From an uncultured Candidatus Saccharibacteria bacterium (GTDB lineage: Bacteria > Patescibacteriota > Saccharimonadia > CAILAD01 > BJGX01): a DNA stretch of 64,000 nucleotides. A model generated the notes under the pieces. It was not told the origin of the DNA. It searched no databases and worked only from the letters and a program-made list of their open reading frames with translations. This document shows positions 45,857 through 56,800 of the stretch, one piece after another. Within the stretch, counting starts at the first letter, position 1. The number at the start of each line of letters is the position of its first letter. A program made the position numbers and the translations under genes. The stretch spans positions 6,224 through 70,223 of the forward strand of contig CAZKFZ010000005.1 in NCBI GenBank assembly GCA_964552475.1. The letters run 5' to 3'.

Positions 45857-47041
45857 TTACTTGGTAATTTTAGTTACTACTCCGGCGCCAACAGTCTTAC
45901 CACCTTCACGAATTGCGAATCGCAGACCTTCGTCCATTGCGATTGGGGCAAGTAGTTTTACCTTGATACTAATATTATCTCCAGGCATAACCATCTCGGT
46001 ACCTTCTGGTAGTTCTACTTCGCCAGTAACGTCGGTAGTTCGGAAGTAGAATTGTGGTTTGTAACCCTTAAAGAATGGGGTGTGACGTCCACCTTCGTCT
46101 TTTTTAAGCACGTATATTTCGGCATCAAATTCAGTATGTGGTTTTACACTACCTGGTTTGGCTAGAACCTGACCACGTTCAATATCGTCGCGTTCTACTC
46201 CACGTAGTAATACACCAACATTGTCGCCTGCTTGACCTTCGTCGAGCATCTTTTTAAACATCTCTACGCCAGTTACGACTGTTTTGGTAGTATCTTTAAT
46301 ACCAACAATTTCAACTTCTTCGTTAACATTTACCTTACCTTGCTCAATACGACCAGTTGCTACTGTACCACGGCCTTTAATAGAGAAAACGTCTTCTATT
46401 GGCATAAGGAATGGTTTGTCTAGCTCACGCTTTGGTTCCGGAATATAGTCATCCATAGCTTTTACAAGCTCCATAATAGCTTCTTCGTTAGGACCGTCAC
46501 CCTCTAGTGCCTTAAGAGCAGAACCTTTTACAATAGGGGCATCTTTGTCGTATTCGTATTTTTCTAAGAGTTCGCGAATTTCAACTTCTACAAGCTCAGC
46601 AAGTTCTGGGTCGGCTTGATCCATTTTGTTCATAAATACGATAATTTTTGGTACACCAACCTGTTTGGCCAAGAGTACGTGCTCGCGAGTTTGAGGCATT
46701 GGGCCGTCAGCAGCACTTACTACCAATATTGCTCCGTCAATCTGAGCTGCACCAGTAATCATGTTCTTTACGTAGTCAGCGTGACCAGGCATATCTACGT
46801 GAGCGTAGTGGCGTTTTTCACTTTCGTATTCTTCGTGTGAGGTTGCAATAGTAATACCACGCTCTCGCTCTTCTGGAGCGTTGTCGATAGTAGCATAGTC
46901 AACTGGTTTGTTAATATCGCTAGGAAGTTTTTTTGATAGTACAGTTGTAATTGCTGCAGTTAGGGTAGTTTTACCATGGTCTACGTGACCCATAGTTCCT
47001 ACGTTTACGTGTGGTTTATCGCGCTTATATGATTCGGCCAT
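45857..47041 (-). CDS. tuf: Elongation factor Tu
   Basis: [36 protein letters not shown]; 394 aa. Confidence 0.97.
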
Positions 47042-47127
47042 TGTTTCTCCTTATAGAAAATGATTATTTTAACTTTAGATTATTTTTTTAGACAATCAAA
47101 AAATCGCCTCAAAAATAGCTTGCTTAT

Positions 47128-47156
47128 AGTATAGTCAATATTGTCTGTTTTGTAAA
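47128..47156 (-). promoter_or_regulatory. Candidate tuf promoter: -35 TTTACA, 17-nt spacer, -10 TATACT (minus strand)
   Basis: Plus strand carries tgtaaa at 47151-47156 and agtata at 47128-47133, with an exact 17-nt spacing. Confidence 0.45.
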
Positions 47157-47179
47157 GAGGTAATTATATTGAGTTTTTT

Positions 47180-49300
47180 CTACCTCGTACTGGCTTCGCC
47201 AGCCTCACGAGCTGCACTATACTTGGTGCTCAACTCTTCAGCCACGTTGTGAGGCACCTCTGCGTAGTGGTCAAACTCCATAGCATAGCTAGCCCGTCCT
47301 TGGGTCATAGATCGCAAACTTGTGGCATAACCAAACATTTCAGCTAGTGGCACAAACGAGTGAATAATCTTTACACCTGAACGATCTTCCATATTATCTA
47401 CACGGCCACGCTTAGCGTTGATATCACCAATTACATCACCCATAAAATCTTCTGGGGTAGTAATTTCTACCTTCATGAGTGGCTCTAAGATTACTGGCTG
47501 GGCTTTTTTTACACCATCTTGCAAGGCCATAGACCCAGCGATTTTAAAAGCTAGCTCAGATGAGTCAACATCGTGATAACTACCGTCATAAAGTTTGGCG
47601 TGAATATCTACTACGGGGTATCCGGCAAGTACGCCGTTTTGCATGGCTTCAATTATGCCAGCCTCTACGGGCTTAATAAACTCCTTGGGAATGGCTCCAC
47701 CGACAATGGCGTTTTCAAACTCAAATATTTTAGTTTTGTCGTCTTCTTCGGTTTTGACTAGCGGACTAAGCTCTAGATAAACATGACCATACTGACCACG
47801 ACCACCAGATTGACGTACAAATTTACTTTCTACCTGGGCTGTGCCTTTAATGGTTTCGCGATAAGCTACTTGTGGACGACCAACGTTGGCCTCTACCTTA
47901 AACTCGCGCTTCATTCTATCAACAATAACCTCTAAGTGTAGCTCGCCCATCCCATCTATAATAGTCTGGCCCGAGTCTTCGTCGGTGTGAACACGAAATG
48001 TTGGGTCTTCTTCGGCCAAGCGGCTAAGCGCAATACTCATCTTCTCTTGGTCGGCTTTGGTTTTGGGTTCAATAGCAATACTAATAACTGGCTCTGGGAA
48101 GGTAATACTTTCTAAAACTACCGGCTTAGCCACATCGCTTAGGGTGTGCCCGGTAATAGTGGCTTTAAGGCCTACTGCGGCGGCAATTTCGCCAGCGTAT
48201 ACCTCATTTACTTCTTCGCGGTTATTGGCGTGCATACGCACTATACGGCCAATGCGTTCTTTTTCGCCAGTACTAGCATTTAACACATAGCTACCAGACT
48301 TAATTGTGCCCGAATATACTCTAAAGAAAGCTAGTTTACCCACAAATGGGTCGGTGGCTATCTTAAAAGCTAGAGCAGCAAATGGCGCGTCGTCGCTTAC
48401 CTCTAGCACTTTTTCTTCGCCAGTTTTATTATCGATCGCTAGAGGTGGCGTTACATCTAGAGGGCTAGGTAGATATTCGGTCACAATATCAAGTAGTTTT
48501 TCAACAATTACGCCTCGACCGTCACCACCAGATACTATAAAGAAGTCGCCCTTAAGTACACTTTTGCGTATGCAAGTTTTAATCTCTTCGTTGGTTAACT
48601 CGGTACCTTCAAGGTATTTTTCCATTATCGTGTCGTCAGACTCTACCGCAGCCTCTATAAGGTGTTGGCGGTAATTGGTGGCTTTTTCTACCATATCTTC
48701 AGGAATCTCAGACTCTACTAGCTCTTTGTCGGTGTAGTCTTTGTAGGTGTAGGCTTTCATAGCTATTAGATCTACTACGCCATTAATAGCTTGTTCATAA
48801 CCAATTGGTAAATGTATGGGGTAAGCTCGCTTGGTAAGGCGACCGTGAATACTCTCTAAGCTTTTGTAAAAATCGCCGCCGGTTTGGTTAATTTTATTTA
48901 TAAAACAAATGCGTGGAACGCCATATTTGTCGGCCTGACGCCAAACTGTTTCTGATTGTGGCTCTACACCCATTTTACCGTCAAAAACAGTTACAGCACC
49001 GTCAAGTACGCGAAGTGATCGCTCTACCTCTACGGTAAAGTCGATGTGACCAGGAGTATCGATTATATTAATGCGTTTTTTGTTCCAGAAACATGTAGTA
49101 GCCGCGCTAGTAATGGTAATGCCGCGTTCTTGCTCTTGCTCCATCCAGTCCATAGTGGCTTCACCTTGATGAACCTCGCCTATTTTGTGCACTTTACCGG
49201 TACGATAAAGAACTCCTTCAGTTACTGTTGTTTTACCAGCATCAATATGGGCAATAATACCAATATTACGGGTATCTTCTAAGCTATAGTCTCGTGCCAT
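47180..49300 (-). CDS. fusA: Elongation factor G
   Basis: [29 protein letters not shown]; 706 aa. Confidence 0.97.
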
Positions 49301-49478
49301 GGGATTTTAAATTGTCTCCTTTAAATGTTTACTAGAATAATTATTCCAAAATGAAAAAAGCGCCAGTTTTGGCTATTTCTGATTAATTGTAACAATTTGT
49401 CGACTTTTTTACAAGTTGAATATAATATAGCAAATTTTTTAACGATATTAATTTAAAAAAAACAAGTCGTTATGGCTA

Positions 49479-49507
49479 TTGACAGGTTAAAATGCTTATG
49501 CTATTGT
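49479..49507 (+). promoter_or_regulatory. Candidate promoter: -35 TTGACA (49479-84), 17-nt spacer, -10 TATTGT (49502-07), plus strand, reading into the structured RNA region
   Basis: Perfect -35 hexamer with exact 17-nt spacing. There is no ORF downstream for ~400 nt. Confidence 0.4.
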
Positions 49508-49644
49508 TAAATTGAACAGTGTCAACAACAAAAGAGACACAATAGCACCAAAAAAGTTCTGTACATAAATAATTCTCGACAGCACTTTTACTAATTGATA
49601 CAAACATTAAAATCAACACCAAAACATATTTAATGTTTGTGTCA

Positions 49645-49861
49645 TAACAATTGTGCTCTCAGGTGAGAGTTTTTTTATAATCTGGGTTCTTGTTGGTTAT
49701 TATGTGGCAACAGAGTGCAACGAGGGTTCTTAACACAGCCACTAAAGCAAAGATGAGAACCAGAATGCCGTGGACCGGAAGAAGCACTAACACAATGTGG
49801 TGTTTGCTTCTTCCGGCCTCGGCTAACCACATCTCTAAGGTACGCTTTAGAGATTTTTTTG
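49645..49861 (+). ncRNA. Candidate structured small RNA or cis-regulatory leader, GC-rich (~50%) in an AT-rich intergenic region. It contains a 12-bp perfect hairpin (49765-49806) and ends in a strong intrinsic terminator
   Basis: Hairpin 1 (ctctc aggt gagag plus T7) at 49645-49667 overlaps a TATAAT box. Hairpin 2 (ccggaagaagca ...18 nt... tgcttcttccgg) at 49765-49806 is a perfect 12-bp stem. A long-range pairing joins ctgggttct (49671-79) with agaaccag (49746-53). Hairpin 3 (atctctaagg tacg cctttagagat, 10-bp stem with a tetraloop) is followed by T7 at 49855-61. Its class is unknown. Confidence 0.45.
49831..49861 (+). terminator. Strong intrinsic terminator (10-bp stem, UACG loop, T7 run) closing the structured RNA, located 70 nt upstream of the first island gene
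   Basis: atctctaagg tacg ct ttagagat ttttttt, read directly from the sequence. Confidence 0.7.
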
Positions 49862-49932
49862 TACAAAATTAGTTTGACCCAATTCAAAGACTGTGTTAGT
49901 TTAAAACCTACTTCCAAAAGGAGTAGAACCTT

Positions 49933-50380
49933 GTTGAATCGCAAAAAAATACTTATCGGTATAGTTGCTGTCGTATTACTAGCGTTGCCATTTGGAATTC
50001 ATTGGTACGTTGGCTATGAAGCTCGTCATTTTGGTAGAGAAGCTGCTGATGAAGCGGTATCAAGAGCTAATCGCGCCAACTTTGCAGAGAACGAATGGAA
50101 TAAGCTTCTAAGGCTGGCCAGGGATGAAGATTTTAGAACTCTTATTGAGCAACAACTTGCCGAACAGTGTATAGATGCTAACTACATTGTTAGCCTTATG
50201 ATTCAAAGTCAATATGGCGAAACAGATAGTGAGCTTGCTGACATACTAACAGAATTACTACCGGAGCCTGCTTCACCAGAAGAATGTGCTGCCTCTAGTG
50301 GGGATAATCAAGAAGCTCAACCAGATAGTAGCGAGCAAGACACGACCACTACAACTGTCGCCATCTTGCCAGATGACTAA
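49933..50380 (+). CDS. Small membrane-anchored protein with an acidic, low-complexity C-terminus (island gene 1)
   Basis: AAGGAG RBS 7 nt before TTG 49933. One N-terminal TM (ILIGIVAVVLLALPFGIHWYV). The ORF track begins at 49859, inside the terminator, which is unlikely to be the true start. Confidence 0.5.
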
Positions 50381-50386
50381 CCTTAG

Positions 50387-50414
50387 CCCGATCAATCAAG
50401 ATCGGGTTTTTATT
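50387..50414 (+). terminator. Intrinsic terminator after island gene 1
   Basis: cccgatc aatcaa gatcggg followed by tttttatt. Confidence 0.6.
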
Positions 50415-50419
50415 GCTAA

Positions 50420-50839
50420 TTGACTCACTTTGTGCTATTATCGTCGCATTATTGTACCCTGTCAGAAAGTGAGTACTTGTTACACCCAGAGCCAGAAAAA
50501 AAACCTGAAGTTGCAAACAGACCCATATCGCCTAAAGATATCGAATTGTTCCAGCTTGAGTTAAGGTCTGAACAGCTGCTGGCAGAAAGTAAAAATTTGT
50601 TTCAAGATAATTTGGATTCTTTTAAAAGAGTAGGTTATGGTATATTAGCCAATTGGGTGCTTTTTTGTGTAGTCTTTGGTGTTGTCTTGCAAGATATTGG
50701 AGTGATTATTTTTATTACAGCACTGTGTATTGCTATTTATCTCATTATGCATATCGATCATTATCATTTCTATAAACATATCGCCAAGCCAGTTCTTGAT
50801 CTACCAAGCATCTTTGAACTACCTCATGAAAAATCATGA
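50420..50839 (+). CDS. Small membrane protein with a 2-TM C-terminus (island gene 2); start uncertain, possibly TTG near 50468
   Basis: ORF with hydrophobic segments LANWVLFCVVFGVVL and VIIFITALCIAIYLIM. A possible promoter is TTGCTA-17-TATTAT at 50413-50441. Confidence 0.4.
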   Translation: MTHFVLLSSHYCTLSESEYLLHPEPEKKPEVANRPISPKDIELFQLELRSEQLLAESKNLFQDNLDSFKRVGYGILANWVLFCVVFGVVLQDIGVIIFITALCIAIYLIMHIDHYHFYKHIAKPVLDLPSIFELPHEKS

Positions 50840-50844
50840 GGTTT

Positions 50845-51528
50845 TTACTTATATACAAGCTCTACAAAAAACCGTTCTTTTGAGCTCTCTACTAAGTTTG
50901 CTAGCTCAGGCATGCTAGCCATAAAGGGGCTATGGTTAAATTCTTCTCGCCAAGCCCAACTAGCTATACCCGGCTTTTGGGTTTTCTTGATTTCACCGTA
51001 GGGGTTTTTACCATAAAACAAATGAAACATTATCTGACTAACCAGCTCGGTGTTTTCATAGATAGTTATATAACCATCACCACGATGCGAAAGCTCGCAC
51101 TGTAGTCCAGTTTTTTCTTTTAGTTCTCGGTGAGCAGCCTGAGATACCGTTTCGCCCATATGTAGTTTGCCATACACAAACCCAACTTGCTCTATCAAGG
51201 GCTGGCGTTTACGTCTGTAGACTAGCCATTGTCCTTTTTCGTTTTGACAGGTTATAAGAGTCACTATACTTGGTTGTTTACGTGGAGTGTAGTCTTGCAG
51301 ACTCAAGCTATCAGCAAAAACCTTGCCTTCTGGGCTAAGTAAGTACAGTCCGTCTTCATTTTTTACCACCAAACCATCCTTGATAAGCGCATTTAGATGA
51401 TACATGAAGTGATTGCCTTCTACGTCCGAGGGTTTGAGTTTACTGTAACGCAAATAAGGATTGGTAATGAGTTTTGATAGAATGTCTTTTTGGATTCTAT
51501 GAGGCATATACATATGATATATCCACAT
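50845..51528 (-). CDS. Winged-HTH-like N-terminal domain fused to a Nudix hydrolase domain (island gene 3); candidate nucleotide-sensing regulator or enzyme
   Basis: Nudix box GKLHMGETVSQAAHRELKEKTGL (Gx5Ex7REUxEKxGU, one E-to-K substitution). The N-terminal ~75 aa have a wHTH-like pattern (ILSKLITNPYLRYSKLKP...GNHFMYHLNALIKDGLV). Confidence 0.6.
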   Translation of the reverse strand: MWIYHMYMPHRIQKDILSKLITNPYLRYSKLKPSDVEGNHFMYHLNALIKDGLVVKNEDGLYLLSPEGKVFADSLSLQDYTPRKQPSIVTLITCQNEKGQWLVYRRKRQPLIEQVGFVYGKLHMGETVSQAAHRELKEKTGLQCELSHRGDGYITIYENTELVSQIMFHLFYGKNPYGEIKKTQKPGIASWAWREEFNHSPFMASMPELANLVESSKERFFVELVYK

Positions 51529-51704
51529 ACTTCTTTAGTCAATAAACATATTGTATATTCAAATTTGAGTCATTTCAAATAGTAACCATTTATTTTTAGT
51601 TAATCTTTTTGTGTATAAGTACTGTTATTTATTATATTATTGCCAATTTAGAATTAAAATGATATTATAGCTTTCAGTTTTGCACCTACTGTTAGGAGAA
51701 AAGA

Positions 51705-52733
51705 TTGAAAGAGTCACAGTATTATCGTGGCTACAGCCACTTTAAAAATTGTGTATCAGCTTGGTTTGCAGTTCTATTCTTTGTCGGACTAGCTGTTGTA
51801 TCGGGACTTATCTGGAACAACAACAGACTCTGGGGTGATGAGAACAAAGACATTCGAATTGCACAAGCTAATAATGATTTTTGGGCGATGGTTTCGGGGC
51901 AGTTGTCAATTCAAGATAATGTCTATGGGAACTTTGCGAGTGATCTGTATGAATTCACTCAAAAAGACGCTCCAAGCGATGGATTAGTAGAAGTAACTAC
52001 CGACACCATCAATACTCAACAAACCACTCCGGGTTACAACCCTTTGGTGGTAGATTCGCTAGATGAGTTTGTTGCACCGATCGATTTGTATGACGGGTTT
52101 GAAGAAGCAACTGGCATTAATGCCTTTGCCGGAGTGGATGTTTCTGAAGACTCCATAAGAGACGCTGGAAGACTAAAGAGTAGCTTTGTCGACAATGTTA
52201 ATCAGGTAGTCTCTGGAGATAGTACTGGGCTGTTAGAGCAATCAACTAGCCACAAATACACATATTACAGCTGGAATATCTGGCGAGAGTTAGCTGGACT
52301 ATACCTTTTAGTGGGCGTAATAGCTCTACTGCTAGGTGGGGTGCACTTTAGGTGCGATGACTACTACTGTAATAAACCACACTACACTATGTATGGGTGG
52401 TCAAAACCAGCTCATCATACGGGTGCGAAGATCTGGCTAGCAATTCTTTGCCCCATAATGTTTGTACTGTGGCTAGCACTACGGCTGGTTAGTTGGCCGT
52501 TTAGGGTGTTGATAAACTGGATCAACAATCAATACGATATCATTCAAGGTAGAGTTAAAATTAAGAAACAGGGTGATAGCCTTCAAATTTCTACAACAAA
52601 GTTGATTGACGACTTAAGCCTGTACCGAGACAATATAGTTCAGCTTCAACCTCAAAGTGAACAAGAAATTTATCTCGAAGAGATTAACAGACTTATTGAG
52701 ACACTAAAAGCCAACCAACCTCAATCTCTATAA
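51705..52733 (+). CDS. 3-TM membrane protein with a ~190-aa extracytoplasmic domain and a C-terminal coiled coil (island gene 4), GC ~45%
   Basis: AGGAGA RBS 5 nt before TTG 51705; hydrophobic segments at residues ~20-38, ~200-220 and ~250-270. I recognise no motif. Confidence 0.55.
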   Translation: MKESQYYRGYSHFKNCVSAWFAVLFFVGLAVVSGLIWNNNRLWGDENKDIRIAQANNDFWAMVSGQLSIQDNVYGNFASDLYEFTQKDAPSDGLVEVTTDTINTQQTTPGYNPLVVDSLDEFVAPIDLYDGFEEATGINAFAGVDVSEDSIRDAGRLKSSFVDNVNQVVSGDSTGLLEQSTSHKYTYYSWNIWRELAGLYLLVGVIALLLGGVHFRCDDYYCNKPHYTMYGWSKPAHHTGAKIWLAILCPIMFVLWLALRLVSWPFRVLINWINNQYDIIQGRVKIKKQGDSLQISTTKLIDDLSLYRDNIVQLQPQSEQEIYLEEINRLIETLKANQPQSL

Positions 52734-52764
52734 AATGCATTGTAAGCAAAAACCCCGATTAATA

Positions 52765-52793
52765 CTCGGGGTTTTTAACTATCAAAAAACCAC
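52765..52793. terminator. Bidirectional intrinsic terminator
   Basis: aaaaa ccccg attaatact cgggg ttttt. Confidence 0.7.
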
Positions 52794-52800
52794 CGATACT

Positions 52801-52828
52801 GGTGGTTTTTTGATAGTTTATACAGAAT
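52801..52828. terminator. Second bidirectional intrinsic terminator, 3 nt after the rpsG stop
   Basis: aaaaaa ccacc gatact ggtgg tttttt. Confidence 0.7.
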
Positions 52829-52830
52829 GT

Positions 52831-53307
52831 TTAATATCTGGCAAAGTGGGCAAAGGCTTTATTGGCTTCAGCCATCTGGTGAGCATCTTGACGCTTCTTA
52901 ATAGCATCACCTTCGTTGTTGTAGGCATTAATTAGCTCGTTGGCCAATCGCTTATCGAAGCTTTTACCTGATTTATTGCGGGCACTGTCTAGTATCCATA
53001 TGAGTGCATAGTGAGTCTTACGATCACCCTTCACTTCCATGGGCACCTGGTAGTTAGCACCACCAATTCTTTTACTTTTTACCATAACATTAGGACTAAC
53101 GTTTTTTACCGCCGTTTCTAGTACCTCGGCTGGTTCTACCTTGGTTTTTACAGCTGCTTGTTCAATGGCCGAATACACCAATCGTTCTGCGATTTGCTTC
53201 TTACCGTGGTTCATTACCTTGTTAATGGTCTTCGAAACCAAAACACTTTTATAGACGCGGTCTGGTGGTATTACTCTTTTTAGTGATTTTGTAACTTTTC
53301 TTGGCAT
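52831..53307 (-). CDS. rpsG: 30S ribosomal protein S7
   Basis: [21 protein letters not shown]...[36 protein letters not shown]. Confidence 0.95.
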   Translation of the reverse strand: [158 protein letters not shown]

Positions 53308-53316
53308 AACAAACTC

Positions 53317-53739
53317 TTAAGCTTTCTTGGCGCCTTCGCGCTTTGTGCCGTATTTACTTCTACCCTGTTTACGATCTGAAACACCTGCGGTATCTAGTGC
53401 TCCACGCACCACATGATAACGCACACCAGGTAAGTCTTTCACTCTTCCACCACGAATAAGCACTACAGAGTGCTCTTGTAAATTGTGTCCTTCGCCACCA
53501 ATATAAGCAGTAACTTCCATACCGTTAGTAAGGCGCACACGGGCCACCTTACGAAGCGCTGAGTTTGGCTTTTTGGGCGTTTGAGTAAAAACCTTGGTGC
53601 ACACACCACGCTTTAAGGGTGAGTTTAGATTGCTTGAGCGTACTTTTAGAGCATTAAAACTACGAGCCAAAGCTGGTGCTTTGTTCTTTTTGCCTTTGCT
53701 AGCTCTAGGCTTTCTAATTAGTTGATTTATAGTCGGCAT
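53317..53739 (-). CDS. rpsL: 30S ribosomal protein S12
   Basis: [12 protein letters not shown]...[19 protein letters not shown]... Confidence 0.95.
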
Positions 53740-53801
53740 AATATAGTATCTTTTTTAAACTAAATTTAACTTCATTAGCTTATCAGATAGACCCCTTCTG
53801 G

Positions 53802-56800
53802 TCAAGCTTCTTCTCTTTCACTAAAACCTGTACCTACTGGAATGAGTCTACCAATAATCACATTCTCTTTAAGACCTCGTAGCTTGTCTTGTTTACCACG
53901 CATGGCTGCAGATATTAGCACTTTAGTGGTTTCTTGGAAACTTGCTGCAGAAAGCCAACTATCTGAACTTGTTGATATCTTAGTAATTGGCATTAGAAGA
54001 TTTTCAAAGCTAGCTGGTTTACCCTTACCCTCTTTGGCTTTGGTATTTTCTTCTATTAGCGCTGCTCGAGAAACAATATCTCCAGATATAAACTCGGTGT
54101 CCGCAGGTTCTTCAATCCGAACTCTTGAGAACATCTGTCTTATTATCACTTCAATATGTTTAGCAGCGATAGTCTGACCTTGACTTAAGTAGATTGCTTG
54201 AACTTCGTCAATAATATATCTTTGAACAGATTCTTCACCTTGAAGCTTGAGCATATCTTGAAGATTTACCGAGCCTTCGGTTAGACGCTGGCCAATCTCT
54301 ACTCGATCACCATTTTTTACTTCTACAGAGGTGTACTCGCTTGTAGTATATTGGCGAGTGTTACCGCTATCGTGAGTAAGCACTATTTCATCCTTTTCAA
54401 CCGTTACTGTGCCTATTCCACCTGCTTTAACAGTCTTTTTACCATCGGCAGAAATAGCCAATACCTGCGAGCGCGTTACCTGCACACCTGTTTTCACTTT
54501 TGGTTTCATATCTTTTAGCGGATAACGAGTTATCTTTTGATCATCAGGAACAATACTAATAACTTGTTTGGTGTCTTTTTTGGTAATCTTTGCTGTACCT
54601 GCTATTTCTGAGAGTATTGCCTGTCCTTTAGGAGCTCGGGCTTCGAATATTTCCTCTACTCGAGGTAGACCCTGAGTAATATCTCCGCCAATACCAGTTT
54701 GGTGCTTTGTGTCCATGGTTAGCTGCGTTCCTGGCTCACCAATACTCTGGGCAGCCATAATACCTACCGCCTCACCCAACACAACAGGATCACCCTTGGC
54801 TAAGTCAATACCATAACACTTCTGACAAAGTCCCCACGCACTTCTACATTTTAGAATTGAGCGAATTCTAATACTTTCTAGCTCTAAATCTTCAATACGA
54901 CGAGCTGCAGTATCTGAAATTAACTGACCTTTTTTTACAATTACTTCAGATGTCTTAGGATCGATAACTTTCTCCATAGAAGTCCTACCAACTATCCAGG
55001 CTGATAAGCCCTCTTCTCCGGTTGCAATTGCTTCTGCTCGACTCATTACATAACCTTCTTTGTCACCACAATCGTTTTCAGAAATAACAATGTCTTGAGC
55101 GACATCGACAAGACGTCTAGTAAGATATCCAGATTCCGAAGTACGTAGTGCAGTATCGGTTAAACCTTTTCGAGCACCGTGAGTAGATATAAAGTACTCA
55201 AGTACACCCAGCCCATCTTTGTAATTAGATCGAACAGGTAGTTCAATAACTCGCCCAGCAGGACTAAGCATTAAGCCAAGCATACCACTCATCTTGTTTA
55301 TTTGTCCCAAGCTCGCACGAGAACCAGATTCTAAATCGTCCTGCAAAGTTGAACTTGAATTTGCCAAGGTTTCGCCAAGTAGAGCTTCAATGTCTTCACC
55401 GACCTTTTTCCAGGTTTCCACGGTACGTGCGTATCTTTCATTGTTGGTAATAAGACCCTGTTGATATTGTCCAACATACTCCAAGACCTTAGATTCACCC
55501 TCTTTGATTAGTCGACCCCGATCTTCTGGCACTACTAAATCATCCATGCCAATTGATATACCAGACTGGGTAGCATACTTAAAACCAAGATCTTTGATGT
55601 CGTCTACTAAATTAGCTGTGGCTTCTTGGCCGTGCTCTGTAAATACTTCAGCCATAATCTTCTGTAGACTAGATTTTACTAATGTGTCGTTTACATAGCT
55701 CATATTTTCTGGCAAAATTTCATTAAAGAACACTCTACCTACGGTAGTATCTTCAATTTTATCCTTAACTCTTACCTTTACCATAGCTCGTAGATCTATA
55801 TGGCCTTCTTGATAGGCCATAATAGCTTCAGCGGTATCACTAAATACCTTACCCTCACCGTTTAAGCCTGGTTTAGTGCCAGTCAAGAAAAAGCAACCTA
55901 ATACAACGTCCTGACTAGGCTTAACTACCGGCTCACCGCTAGACGGTTTTAGCAAGTTGTGCTTAGACAACATTATTTCTCTTGCTTCTTTTTGAGCAGC
56001 TTCAGAGAGAGGTACATGTACGGCCATTTGATCACCATCAAAGTCGGCGTTAAAGGCAGTACATACCATTGGGTGTAATTGAATAGCCTTACCTTCTATA
56101 AGGATAGGTTTAAAAGCTTGTATACCAAGTCTGTGTAGGGTTGGCGCTCTATTGAGTAATACGTATTTGTCAGCAATGACCTCATCAAGGGTGTCCCAAA
56201 CTTCACTACGTGCTCGTTCAATCATGCGAGTAGTTGATTTTACATTGTGTGCAATACCTTTTTCTATTAGCTTACCTATTACAAATGGCTTAAACAGCTC
56301 AAGGGCCATCATTTTTGGCAATCCACATTGGTCGAGTTTTAGGTGGGGTCCAATAACAATTACCGATCTACCAGAGTAGTCTACACGTTTACCAAGTAGG
56401 TTTTGACGAAATCTACCTTGCTTACCTTTTAGTAGGTCGGTAAGGCTCTTAAGTTTTTTACGGCTACCGGCTGCAGAAACCGCTCTATCGCGACGAGCAT
56501 TATTATCTATTAACGCATCAACAGCTTCTTGAAGCATACGTTTTTCGTTTCTACAAATAACTTCTGGAGCTTCTAGAGCAAAAAGTTTCTTAAGTCGGTT
56601 GTTTCGATTGATTACACGGCGATATAGATCATTAAGATCAGAGGCGGCAAAACGCCCACCGTCTAGCTGAACCATTGGTCGAAGATCTGGTGGTATCACA
56701 GGCAGGTTGGTGGTTATCATCCAATCGGCTTTGATGCCAGATTGTACCATGCCCTCAATAAGCTTGAGTCTTTTAAGGGCTTTTTTCTTCTTCTGACCTA

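What the first reader, a model, noticed from the sequence alone, without database searches (positions are those of the whole stretch)
50845..51528. Winged-HTH plus Nudix fusion protein, divergently paired with a membrane protein
The protein has a recognisable Nudix box with one substitution (GKLHMGETVSQAAHRELKEKTGL) after an N-terminal ~75-aa wHTH-like domain. From established knowledge, Nudix-related transcriptional regulators (NrtR) carry Nudix then wHTH and sense ADP-ribose. Here the order appears reversed (wHTH then Nudix). The gene is divergent from the 51705 membrane-protein gene, and a 10-bp perfect palindrome TCAAATTTGA lies in the shared 176-nt intergenic region near 51570. This could be a nucleotide-sensing regulator of the island, or a catalytically active Nudix with a DNA-binding tether.
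Basis: partly seen in the sequence, partly recalled or inferred. Interest (0 to 1): 0.55.

Follow-up and report, generated by a model that had tools for sequence, protein, structure and literature searches.

The report
Self-regulating DNA-binding Nudix protein of Saccharibacteria

Summary
The ORF at 50845-51528 (-) is real; its likely start is M8 at 51507. It encodes an N-terminal winged helix-turn-helix (wHTH) and a C-terminal Nudix domain (Pfam E=2e-11). AlphaFold2 and Foldseek support both folds.

The Nudix box has one change: the second Glu of the "EE" pair is Lys139. This Lys is present in all 79 aligned homologues from species genomes, so it is a family trait.

The family has about 300 clusters at 50% identity. 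Named members are almost all Saccharibacteria or other Patescibacteria. In about 35 of 83 loci the gene sits between rpsG and fusA, as it does here.

The exact 9-bp palindrome TTGA[C/G]TCAA lies within 250 nt upstream of the gene in 68 of 82 species-genome loci. That is 4.3/kb against 0.013/kb elsewhere. Copies are usually 31 or 15 bp apart and overlap the promoter.

The window carries two one-mismatch copies 31 bp apart (51534-51542 and 51565-51573). The first is the -35 element.

The membrane-protein partner recurs only in the closest relative.

Best reading: an autoregulated one-component regulator with a sensor Nudix domain. It works like NrtR but is not an NrtR. The ligand is unknown.

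The parts
50845..51507 (-). wHTH-Nudix gene. Likely start is M8 at 51507 (220 aa). The maximal ORF extends to 51528. Stop codon at 50845-50847.
   Evidence: ORF listing. Homologues start MHxxQ. The DNA upstream of M8 is conserved as promoter sequence, and in relatives it carries stop codons in that frame.
51289..51507 (-). N-terminal winged helix-turn-helix domain (residues 8-80). The recognition helix alpha3 (38-50) carries the motif E37-G-N39-x-F41-M-Y43-H44-L, conserved across the family.
   Evidence: AlphaFold2 topology a1-b-a2-a3-b-b-a4. Foldseek gives MarR/AspA/PcaV at TM 0.77-0.79. Sub-threshold Pfam hits are nearly all to winged-helix families, with DUF7347 hit by 25 of 25 members. N39, Y43, H44, Y62 and G68 are 93-100% conserved in 141 cluster representatives.
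50848..51279 (-). C-terminal Nudix domain (residues 84-227), MutT/MTH1-like.
   Evidence: Pfam PF00293 E=2.2e-11. Foldseek against the PDB puts MTH1 and MutT on top at E about 1e-9. The PDB sequence search agrees.
51103..51171 (-). Nudix box GKLHMGETVSQAAHRELKEKTGL. K139 (codon 51112-51114) replaces the second Glu of the EE pair.
   Evidence: Read directly from the sequence. K139 is in 79 of 79 aligned genome homologues and in 109 of 141 50%-cluster representatives, with E in only 3.
51534..51542 (-). Proximal operator box TTGACTAAA (one mismatch to TTGACTCAA). Its first six bases are the -35 hexamer TTGACT (51537-51542).
   Evidence: It is the family-wide box seen.
51565..51573 (-). Second operator box ATGACTCAA (one mismatch), 31 bp upstream of the proximal box.
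   Evidence: This is the only pair of boxes with at most one mismatch at 31-bp spacing in the whole 64-kb window.
51595..51603 (-). Possible third box TTAACTAAA (two mismatches), 30 bp further upstream. Weak in this genome.
   Evidence: Sequence. It aligns with exact boxes at the same position in relatives L010 and L013.
51514..51519 (-). -10 hexamer TATCAT, 17 nt from the -35. Only 6 nt lie between it and the M8 ATG, so the mRNA is predicted to be leaderless or nearly so.
   Evidence: Promoter scan, 10 of 12 matches. In relatives, 6-8 nt separate the -10 from the ATG in the aligned close relatives except L006 (12 nt). Transcription has not been tested.
51518..51527 (-). TGTGGATATA element in the promoter spacer. 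It is invariant in relatives of at least 73% identity. Its role is unknown.
   Evidence: It is the only exact copy in the window. It sits at -20 to -26 in all 13 loci of the close clade.
51610..51618 (+). Degenerate inverted partner (TGTGTATAA) of the TGTGGATAT element, facing the divergent gene.
   Evidence: Relatives carry an exact ATATCCACA about 92 nt upstream of the proximal copy.
51705..52733 (+). Divergent membrane-protein gene (342 aa, three predicted transmembrane segments, AGGAG ribosome-binding site). It is a lineage-specific partner.
   Evidence: It has no Pfam family. A homologue is found only in L022. A promoter-like site lies at 51640-51668 (+).

Best explanation
The gene encodes a one-component transcription factor.

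DNA binding. The N-terminal wHTH binds the short palindrome (A/T)TTGA(C/G)TCAA(A/T). This box occurs in two or three copies on a lattice of about 15.5 or 31 bp, over and just upstream of the gene's own promoter, which is probably leaderless. The protein therefore controls its own synthesis, most likely by repression, because the boxes overlap the -35 element or the transcription start.

The divergent gene. A divergently transcribed gene usually shares the control region and may be co-regulated. Here it is a membrane protein. In nine other loci it is an AAA_28 P-loop protein with a weak, sub-threshold resemblance to nucleotide kinases.

The Nudix domain. The C-terminal MutT/MTH1-like Nudix domain acts as the effector-binding module, not as a housekeeping hydrolase. 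A metal-ligand glutamate of the Nudix box is replaced by lysine across the family. Binding of a phosphorylated nucleotide-type ligand, not yet identified, would change DNA affinity.

Shown: the domain folds, the Nudix box state, conservation within the family, and the operator motif with its enrichment, spacing and overlap with the promoter.

Inferred: that this protein is what binds the boxes, the direction of regulation, loss of catalysis, and the nature of the ligand.
For: Folds. Pfam NUDIX E=2e-11. Both domain folds are modelled with confidence and match MarR-type wHTH and MTH1/MutT structures.

Operator.
- The exact box TTGA[CG]TCAA lies within 250 nt upstream of the gene in 68 of 82 species-genome loci. 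That is 89 copies in 20.7 kb against 12 copies in 889 kb elsewhere, about 320-fold, and the background count is close to my composition-based estimate of about 9.
- Allowing one mismatch, 79 of 82 loci have a box.
- This holds for homologues down to 33% identity that sit in unrelated genomic contexts.
- Box-to-box spacings peak sharply at 31 bp (23 pairs) and 15 bp (13 pairs).
- The boxes overlap the -35 or lie between the -10 and the ATG.
- In the window, the only pair at 31-bp spacing in 64 kb is at this promoter.

Conservation pattern. The most conserved stretch of the protein is the predicted recognition helix (EGNxFMYHL), matching the invariance of the box. In distant members the wHTH residues stay 93-100% conserved, while the Nudix-box residues fall to 71-78%. 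That is the pattern expected of a regulator with a sensor domain.

Loss of catalysis. K139 replaces the residue equivalent to MutT E57 and MTH1 E56 (alignment) in all 79 aligned genome homologues.

Precedent. In NrtR proteins a perturbed Nudix signature goes with loss of hydrolase activity and with effector binding (PMC2330246).
Against: - No experiment exists. That this protein binds the box is inferred only from co-occurrence.
- The box contains TTGAC, so part of its conservation could reflect -35 function.
- A 9-bp palindrome is unusually short for a wHTH dimer, so the binding stoichiometry is unclear.
- In this window both boxes carry a mismatch and the third carries two. The same is true of the nearest relatives, so regulation may be weakened in this lineage.
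- E126, R134, E135 and E138 remain conserved in the core clade, so residual or altered catalysis is not excluded.
- No further target sites were found, and no ligand can be named.
- A metagenome scan for the double box was swamped by unrelated hits. It gave no independent support.
Confidence: 0.6

Rival explanations
1. It is a bifunctional enzyme-repressor: a catalytically active Nudix hydrolase that also binds DNA, so that substrate turnover and repression are coupled. BirA and NadR work this way, as do the NrtR members that keep an intact signature.
For: G120, E126, R134, E135 and E138 of the Nudix box are 72-79 of 79 conserved in the core family. The fold is closest to real hydrolases, MTH1 and MutT. 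NrtR members with an intact signature are active ADP-ribose pyrophosphatases (PMC2330246).
Against: The position equivalent to MutT E57, a metal ligand whose mutation strongly reduces kcat (established knowledge, recalled and not tested here), is Lys in every core member and Glu in only 3 of 141 representatives. About a quarter of the distant members have lost further box residues while keeping the wHTH. Scores are far below every NCBIfam enzyme equivalog cut-off.
Confidence: 0.2
2. The TTGAsTCAA boxes are simply promoter elements (-35-like TTGAC) or sites for some other factor. The wHTH would then serve another purpose, such as dimerisation, protein docking, or binding elsewhere in the genome.
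For: The proximal box coincides with the -35 hexamer. Because the box is palindromic it could serve as a -35 in both directions of a bidirectional promoter. Binding has not been shown.
Against: The other promoters in 889 kb of the same genomes do not carry the 9-bp palindrome; 12 copies is about chance. The TCAA half, the A/T flanks and the strict 31/15-bp phasing are not promoter features. The box follows the gene into unrelated genomic contexts. In one clade a box lies downstream of the -10.
Confidence: 0.1
3. This is the first reader's version: an ADP-ribose- or NAD-sensing regulator dedicated to the divergent membrane-protein gene and the surrounding island, acting through the TCAAATTTGA palindrome.
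For: A divergent upstream gene is present in 67 of 81 loci, so co-regulation of a divergent partner is plausible. ADP-ribose pyrophosphatases are among the weaker PDB hits (E about 0.002-0.003).
Against: The palindrome is at chance level and is not conserved. The membrane protein is found only in the closest relative. The + strand promoter-like site (51640-51668) lies beyond the boxes. There are no extra boxes in the island. The Nudix domain is closer to MutT/MTH1 than to ADP-ribose pyrophosphatases.
Confidence: 0.07

Closest known systems
NrtR (Nudix-related transcriptional regulators; Rodionov et al. 2008, PMC2330246)
   Same: [quoted passage not shown] The Nudix signature is perturbed. The regulator is predicted from palindromic sites upstream of its own or adjacent genes. 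Some NrtR proteins are auto-repressors (MsNrtR, PMC6800001 abstract).
   Different: The domain order is reversed: wHTH at the N-terminus and Nudix at the C-terminus. The Nudix domain is closest to MutT/MTH1 rather than to ADP-ribose pyrophosphatases. The wHTH matches MarR/AspA-type domains, and no NrtR chain appeared in the PDB sequence or fold searches. The operator is a 9-bp box in phased copies. No NAD genes are linked to it in this window. This looks like an independent fusion, so it is an analogue and not a member.
MutT / MTH1 (NUDT1) nucleoside-triphosphate pyrophosphohydrolases
   Same: They give the best sequence and fold matches for residues 84-227. The Nudix box aligns residue for residue: GKVQTGETIEQAARRELLEESGL in zebrafish MTH1 against GKLHMGETVSQAAHRELKEKTGL here.
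   Different: The second Glu of EE is Lys. There is an extra N-terminal DNA-binding domain. The score is 29 bits against the 97.9-bit equivalog cut-off. It is not an orthologue.
MarR-type and AspA-type winged-helix DNA-binding proteins
   Same: The core wHTH fold superposes at rmsd 1.6-2.0 A over about 70 residues.
   Different: It lacks the N- and C-terminal dimerisation helices of MarR (target TM only 0.4-0.5). No Pfam wHTH family reaches its threshold. The operator box is much shorter than typical MarR palindromes.
Non-catalytic Nudix modules such as CFIm25/NUDT21 and the NUDT9-H domain of TRPM2 (recalled from knowledge, not tested here)
   Same: They have a Nudix fold with glutamates of the box substituted, used to bind a ligand rather than to hydrolyse it.
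   Different: They are eukaryotic proteins with different partners and ligands. They are cited only as precedent that such substitutions go with a sensor role.

Membership tests
Nudix superfamily (PF00293) | Nudix fold and a match to the family profile above the gathering score | tested here: met
   44.4 bits against a cut-off of 21.1, E=2.2e-11. Foldseek to MTH1 and MutT gives E about 1e-9 and target TM 0.70-0.78.
Nudix superfamily (catalytic hydrolases) | Complete Nudix box GX5EX7REUXEEXGU, with all metal-binding glutamates | tested here: not met
   The second E of EE is K139. It is K in 79 of 79 aligned genome homologues and in 109 of 141 cluster representatives, with E in only 3. All other box positions are present.
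NrtR | N-terminal Nudix-like domain followed by a C-terminal wHTH (PMC2330246) | tested here: not met
   The order here is wHTH (residues 8-80) then Nudix (84-227).
NrtR | Nudix domain homologous to ADP-ribose pyrophosphatases | tested here: inconclusive
   The best hits are MTH1 and MutT (E=4e-4 in the PDB sequence search; 7e-7 to the TIGR00586 mutT model). ADP-ribose pyrophosphatases are weaker (E=0.002-0.003).
NrtR | Perturbed Nudix signature, with the domain used as an effector-binding module | tested here: inconclusive
   The signature is perturbed at one position in all core members and erodes further in distant members. Effector binding could not be tested.
NrtR | Operator sites upstream of NAD-metabolism genes, with ADP-ribose releasing the protein from DNA | not testable with these tools
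   No NAD genes lie next to the gene in the window. Sites were found only at the gene's own promoter. The recurring AAA_28 partner (PF13521) belongs to a Pfam family that, from my own recollection, includes the NadR kinase domain. Its best PDB hit is a weak match to thymidylate kinase.
MutT / 8-oxo-dGTP diphosphatase (TIGR00586, NF008044) | Score above the equivalog cut-off | tested here: not met
   29.3 bits against 97.9, and 22.4 against 148.
MarR family | wHTH core plus flanking dimerisation helices, and a Pfam MarR or HTH_27 match above threshold | tested here: not met
   Only the core wHTH superposes (query TM 0.78, target TM 0.4-0.5). HTH_27 hits are sub-threshold, best E=0.004.

The most novel reading that the evidence does not exclude
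The family is an independently evolved class of nucleotide-sensing regulators specific to Patescibacteria. A family-wide Lys in place of a metal-binding Glu would let the Nudix pocket bind a polyphosphate ligand without hydrolysing it; candidates include a host-derived nucleotide, GTP/(p)ppGpp or an NAD metabolite. Anchored between rpsG and fusA, next to a fast-turning-over slot for membrane and nucleotide-handling genes, it would couple the nucleotide supply of these obligate epibionts to expression of variable host-interaction or salvage genes.
Probability: 0.12. Interest if true: 0.75.

Novelty: new variant of a known kind. Interest (0 to 1): 0.5.

Why it matters
To my knowledge, few transcription factors of Saccharibacteria or other Patescibacteria have been characterised. 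My literature searches found nothing on this family.

Here a whole family comes with a precise, testable operator: TTGA[C/G]TCAA in 31/15-bp phased copies. It also has a conserved genomic anchor inside the rpsL-rpsG-fusA region and a defined sensor-domain signature, GKxHxGE-x7-REL-x-EK-x-G.

It also appears to be a second, independent way of building a Nudix-plus-wHTH regulator. That bears on how small-molecule sensing evolves from housekeeping enzymes. Finding the ligand could show which nucleotide signal these reduced, host-dependent bacteria monitor.

Tried and rejected
1. Rejected: it is at chance frequency and is not conserved.

2. A conserved pairing with the membrane protein. Rejected: a homologue is found only in L022.

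3. A scan of metagenome contigs for TTGASTCAA-N22-TTGASTCAA, to find other regulon members. Of 120 loci, only 3 were next to a family gene. The rest were low-GC repeats, 31-bp tandem arrays or chance hits in a very large collection. The scan was uninformative.

4. A search for further boxes in the 64-kb window and within +/-6 kb in 82 loci. Frequencies were at background.

5. Anti-phage defence membership. PADLOC gave only a generic Nudix hit, PDC-S07.

6. Rfam and tRNA scans of 49000-53500 and 47000-54000. Nothing reached threshold.

8. Literature searches for wHTH-then-Nudix regulators or Saccharibacteria Nudix proteins found only NrtR-type work.

Full report
OBSERVATION

The ORF at 50845..51528 (-) exists as described and encodes 227 aa. 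Homologues begin MHxxQ, which corresponds to M8 of this ORF. The DNA between M1 and M8 is conserved in relatives as non-coding promoter sequence, with stop codons in that frame. The real start is therefore most likely 51507, giving 220 aa.

Pfam NUDIX matches residues 89-193 at E=2.2e-11, 44.4 bits against a gathering score of 21.1. The Nudix box is GKLHMGETVSQAAHRELKEKTGL, residues 120-142. Against GX5EX7REUXEEXGU it has one deviation: the second Glu of EE is Lys139.

An AlphaFold2 model built on 40 homologues has a mean pLDDT of 89.5. It shows the order a1-b-a2-a3-b-b-a4 for residues 11-73, followed by a Nudix fold. The Nudix half matches MTH1 and MutT structures at Foldseek E about 1e-9. 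The N-terminal domain modelled alone (pLDDT 88) superposes on the wHTH cores of MarR proteins, AspA and PcaV at TM 0.77-0.79 and rmsd 1.6-2.0 A. Every family member also gives sub-threshold Pfam hits, nearly all to winged-helix families.

The N-terminus does fold as a wHTH, and the Nudix box is supported by profile search.

The palindrome TCAAATTTGA is at 51559-51568, but it carries no statistical weight. The window has 72 perfect 10-bp palindromes, and 41% of simulated regions with the same 23% GC content contain one.

THE FAMILY

A search of 5.8 billion proteins returned 137 homologues, nearly all full-length proteins of about 220 aa (a few truncated). Most are unnamed, or are labelled NUDIX domain-containing protein from Saccharibacteria or Saccharimonadales. 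A profile search of 1.84 billion 50%-identity representatives found 302 proteins at E<=1e-30. The best 150 listed are nearly all about 220 aa, and most cover both domains.

In 79 homologues taken from species genomes, at 33-91% identity, K139 is invariant. So are N39, Y43, Y62, L64, G68, G120 and H123. E126, R134, E135 and E138 are conserved in 72-78 of 79.

In 141 more diverse representatives, the wHTH residues remain 93-100% conserved while the Nudix-box residues drop to 71-78%. Position 139 is K in 109, R in 7, Q in 6 and E in only 3. The DNA-binding half is thus under tighter constraint than the Nudix signature.

GENOMIC CONTEXT

The window is the rpoB-rpoC-rpsL-rpsG ... fusA-tuf-S10 region of a Saccharibacterium, all on the minus strand. 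Between rpsG (52831) and fusA (49300) there is a 3.5-kb insert. It holds the regulator on the operon strand and three membrane-protein ORFs on the other strand.

In 83 loci from GTDB species genomes, plus 5 from assemblies, about 35 keep the order rpsG - variable - regulator - variable - fusA, with the regulator on the operon strand. These include nearly all relatives at 50% identity or more. The more distant homologues lie elsewhere.

The gene immediately upstream is divergent in 67 of 81 loci, but its identity varies. The largest group, nine loci whose members are only 30-59% identical to each other, is an AAA_28 P-loop protein that is always directly divergent. Others are dNK-like kinases or canonical Nudix hydrolases, and many are ORFans. 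The window's 342-aa membrane protein recurs only in the 91%-identical relative L022.

THE OPERATOR

Aligning the upstream regions of close relatives showed a conserved module of about 125 bp, even though the flanking genes differ. More distant clades share one element of it, the palindrome TTGA[C/G]TCAA.

Quantitatively, the exact 9-mer occurs within 250 nt upstream of the start in 68 of 82 species-genome loci. That is 89 copies in 20.7 kb, or 4.3/kb. There are 12 copies in the remaining 889 kb, or 0.013/kb. I estimate about 9 would be expected there from base composition. With one mismatch allowed, 79 of 82 loci have a box.

Flanking positions prefer A/T, and the central base is C or G equally often. 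Distances between boxes peak at 31 bp (23 pairs) and 15 bp (13 pairs). This is a lattice of about 1.5 helical turns.

The boxes overlap the -35, or in another clade lie between the -10 and the ATG.

In the window the boxes are slightly degenerate, as they are in its nearest relatives:
- TTGACTAAA at 51534-51542, whose TTGACT is the -35 of a promoter scoring 10 of 12 matches, with TATCAT at 51514-51519.
- ATGACTCAA at 51565-51573, exactly 31 bp away.
- A two-mismatch copy at 51595-51603.

This is the only 31-bp pair in the 64-kb window. Only 6 nt separate the -10 from the M8 ATG, and 6-8 nt in most of the aligned close relatives. That suggests a leaderless mRNA, which is an inference.

Its other half is not conserved.

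MECHANISM

A motif that travels with a wHTH gene into unrelated contexts, is absent elsewhere, is phased, and sits on the promoter is the classical signature of an autoregulatory operator. The invariance of the predicted recognition helix (EGNxFMYHL) parallels the invariance of the box.

I therefore conclude, with about 0.8 confidence for this step, that the protein binds these boxes and autoregulates, probably as a repressor.

For the Nudix domain, the family-wide Lys sits at the position of MutT E57 and MTH1 E56 (alignment). That residue is a metal ligand that matters for catalysis; this is established knowledge that I recall and did not test. In addition, the signature erodes further in distant members. 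NrtR proteins provide a precedent for a perturbed signature going with loss of activity and effector binding (PMC2330246). Together these favour a ligand-sensing, non-hydrolytic role, at about 0.6 confidence.

Retention of E126, R134, E135 and E138 keeps a bifunctional enzyme-repressor possible.

The ligand is unknown. The MutT/MTH1-like fold, a conserved basic stretch (RRKRQP) and the recurrent kinase-like or Nudix partners point loosely to a phosphorylated nucleotide.

How a 9-bp palindrome on a 15.5-bp lattice is read by a wHTH is also unresolved. One wHTH per box, bridged by Nudix dimers, is one possibility.

COMPARISON WITH KNOWN SYSTEMS

The protein works like NrtR: Nudix-type effector domain, wHTH, and sites at its own or adjacent promoters. 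It fails the defining architecture, because NrtR has Nudix at the N-terminus and wHTH at the C-terminus.

Its Nudix domain is nearer to MutT/MTH1 than to ADP-ribose pyrophosphatases. No NrtR structure appeared in the sequence or fold searches. It is therefore an independent fusion of the same two folds.

It is not a MutT orthologue, at 29 bits against a 97.9-bit cut-off. It is not a MarR-family member either, since only the core wHTH matches.

NOVELTY AND VERDICT

Literature searches found no description of a wHTH-then-Nudix regulator, nor any study of Saccharibacteria Nudix proteins.

I rate this a new variant of a known kind, of moderate interest. The domain-level observation is correct. The regulator idea is right in spirit and now has a concrete, testable operator. 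The specific palindrome, the dedicated membrane-protein partnership and the ADP-ribose link are not supported.

LIMITS

- The regulon beyond the gene's own promoter could not be defined, because only +/-6 kb per genome was available.
- The metagenome scan for the double box was uninformative.
- Two fold libraries were unavailable.
- Nothing about binding, the ligand or catalysis has been tested.

Noticed in passing
window 49301-52830; loci L001-L048: The gap between rpsG and fusA, normally adjacent genes of the str operon, is a variable slot in a large Saccharibacteria clade. Distances from rpsG to the regulator run from about 0.7 to 4.7 kb, and from the regulator to fusA from about 0.05 to 5.5 kb. 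The slot is filled with unrelated small ORFs, mostly on the opposite strand, and the regulator is the only constant resident.
   Followed up: partly
window 51518-51527 (-) and 51610-51618 (+); L001-L014: In relatives of at least 73% identity, an invariant TGTGGATAT sits in the promoter spacer. Its inverted copy ATATCCACA lies about 92 nt upstream, facing the divergent gene. Together with the boxes this gives a two-fold symmetric cassette of about 125 bp (ATATCCACA-N6-TTGAGTCAA ... TTGACTCAA-N6-TGTGGATAT) that is kept while the divergent gene is swapped. It is the only exact copy in the window. Its function is unknown.
   Followed up: partly
window 49672-49862 (+): A GC-richer stretch of about 190 nt lies inside the AT-rich 558-nt non-coding region upstream of fusA. 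It folds strongly (-71.5 kcal/mol, z=-6.2) and ends in a hairpin followed by a U-run. A second terminator-like hairpin sits just upstream at 49655-49670. It may be a small RNA. It has no Rfam match and is conserved only in the closest relative, L022.
   Followed up: partly
window 52748-52818: Two adjacent perfect hairpins with flanking U/A runs lie between the convergent membrane-protein gene and rpsG (-42 kcal/mol, z=-8.6). They explain the sub-threshold Rfam hits there and are most likely bidirectional terminators.
   Followed up: yes
L009, L010, L013, L016, L017, L025, L036, L040, L048 (about 100-190 nt upstream of the regulator, opposite strand): An AAA_28 (PF13521) P-loop protein is the directly divergent partner in nine loci from different clades, at only 30-59% identity to each other. 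L036 carries an extra N-terminal extension of about 180 aa. This may be the ancestral co-regulated gene. It is absent from the window.
   Followed up: partly
L018, L021, L023, L024, L025, L046 (directly downstream of the regulator, same strand): In one clade a protein of about 552 aa follows the regulator, before fusA. It looks like an ABC-F-type ATPase by its N-terminal sequence only; it was not profiled.
   Followed up: no
L086, L097, L113, L200 (metagenome contigs): Unrelated contigs carry tandem arrays of a 31-bp unit containing TTGAGTCAA. They were picked up by the double-box scan and have no family gene nearby. They are probably unrelated satellite repeats.
   Followed up: no
window 49859-50380 (+) and 50420-50839 (+): Two small predicted membrane proteins (173 aa with one hydrophobic segment; 139 aa with a 46-residue hydrophobic stretch) lie downstream of the regulator, convergent with it. 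Neither has a family assignment. The 173-aa protein recurs in L022 (89%) and in L001/L006 (55%). Each gene ends in a terminator-like hairpin (50385-50408 and 50821-50842).
   Followed up: partly
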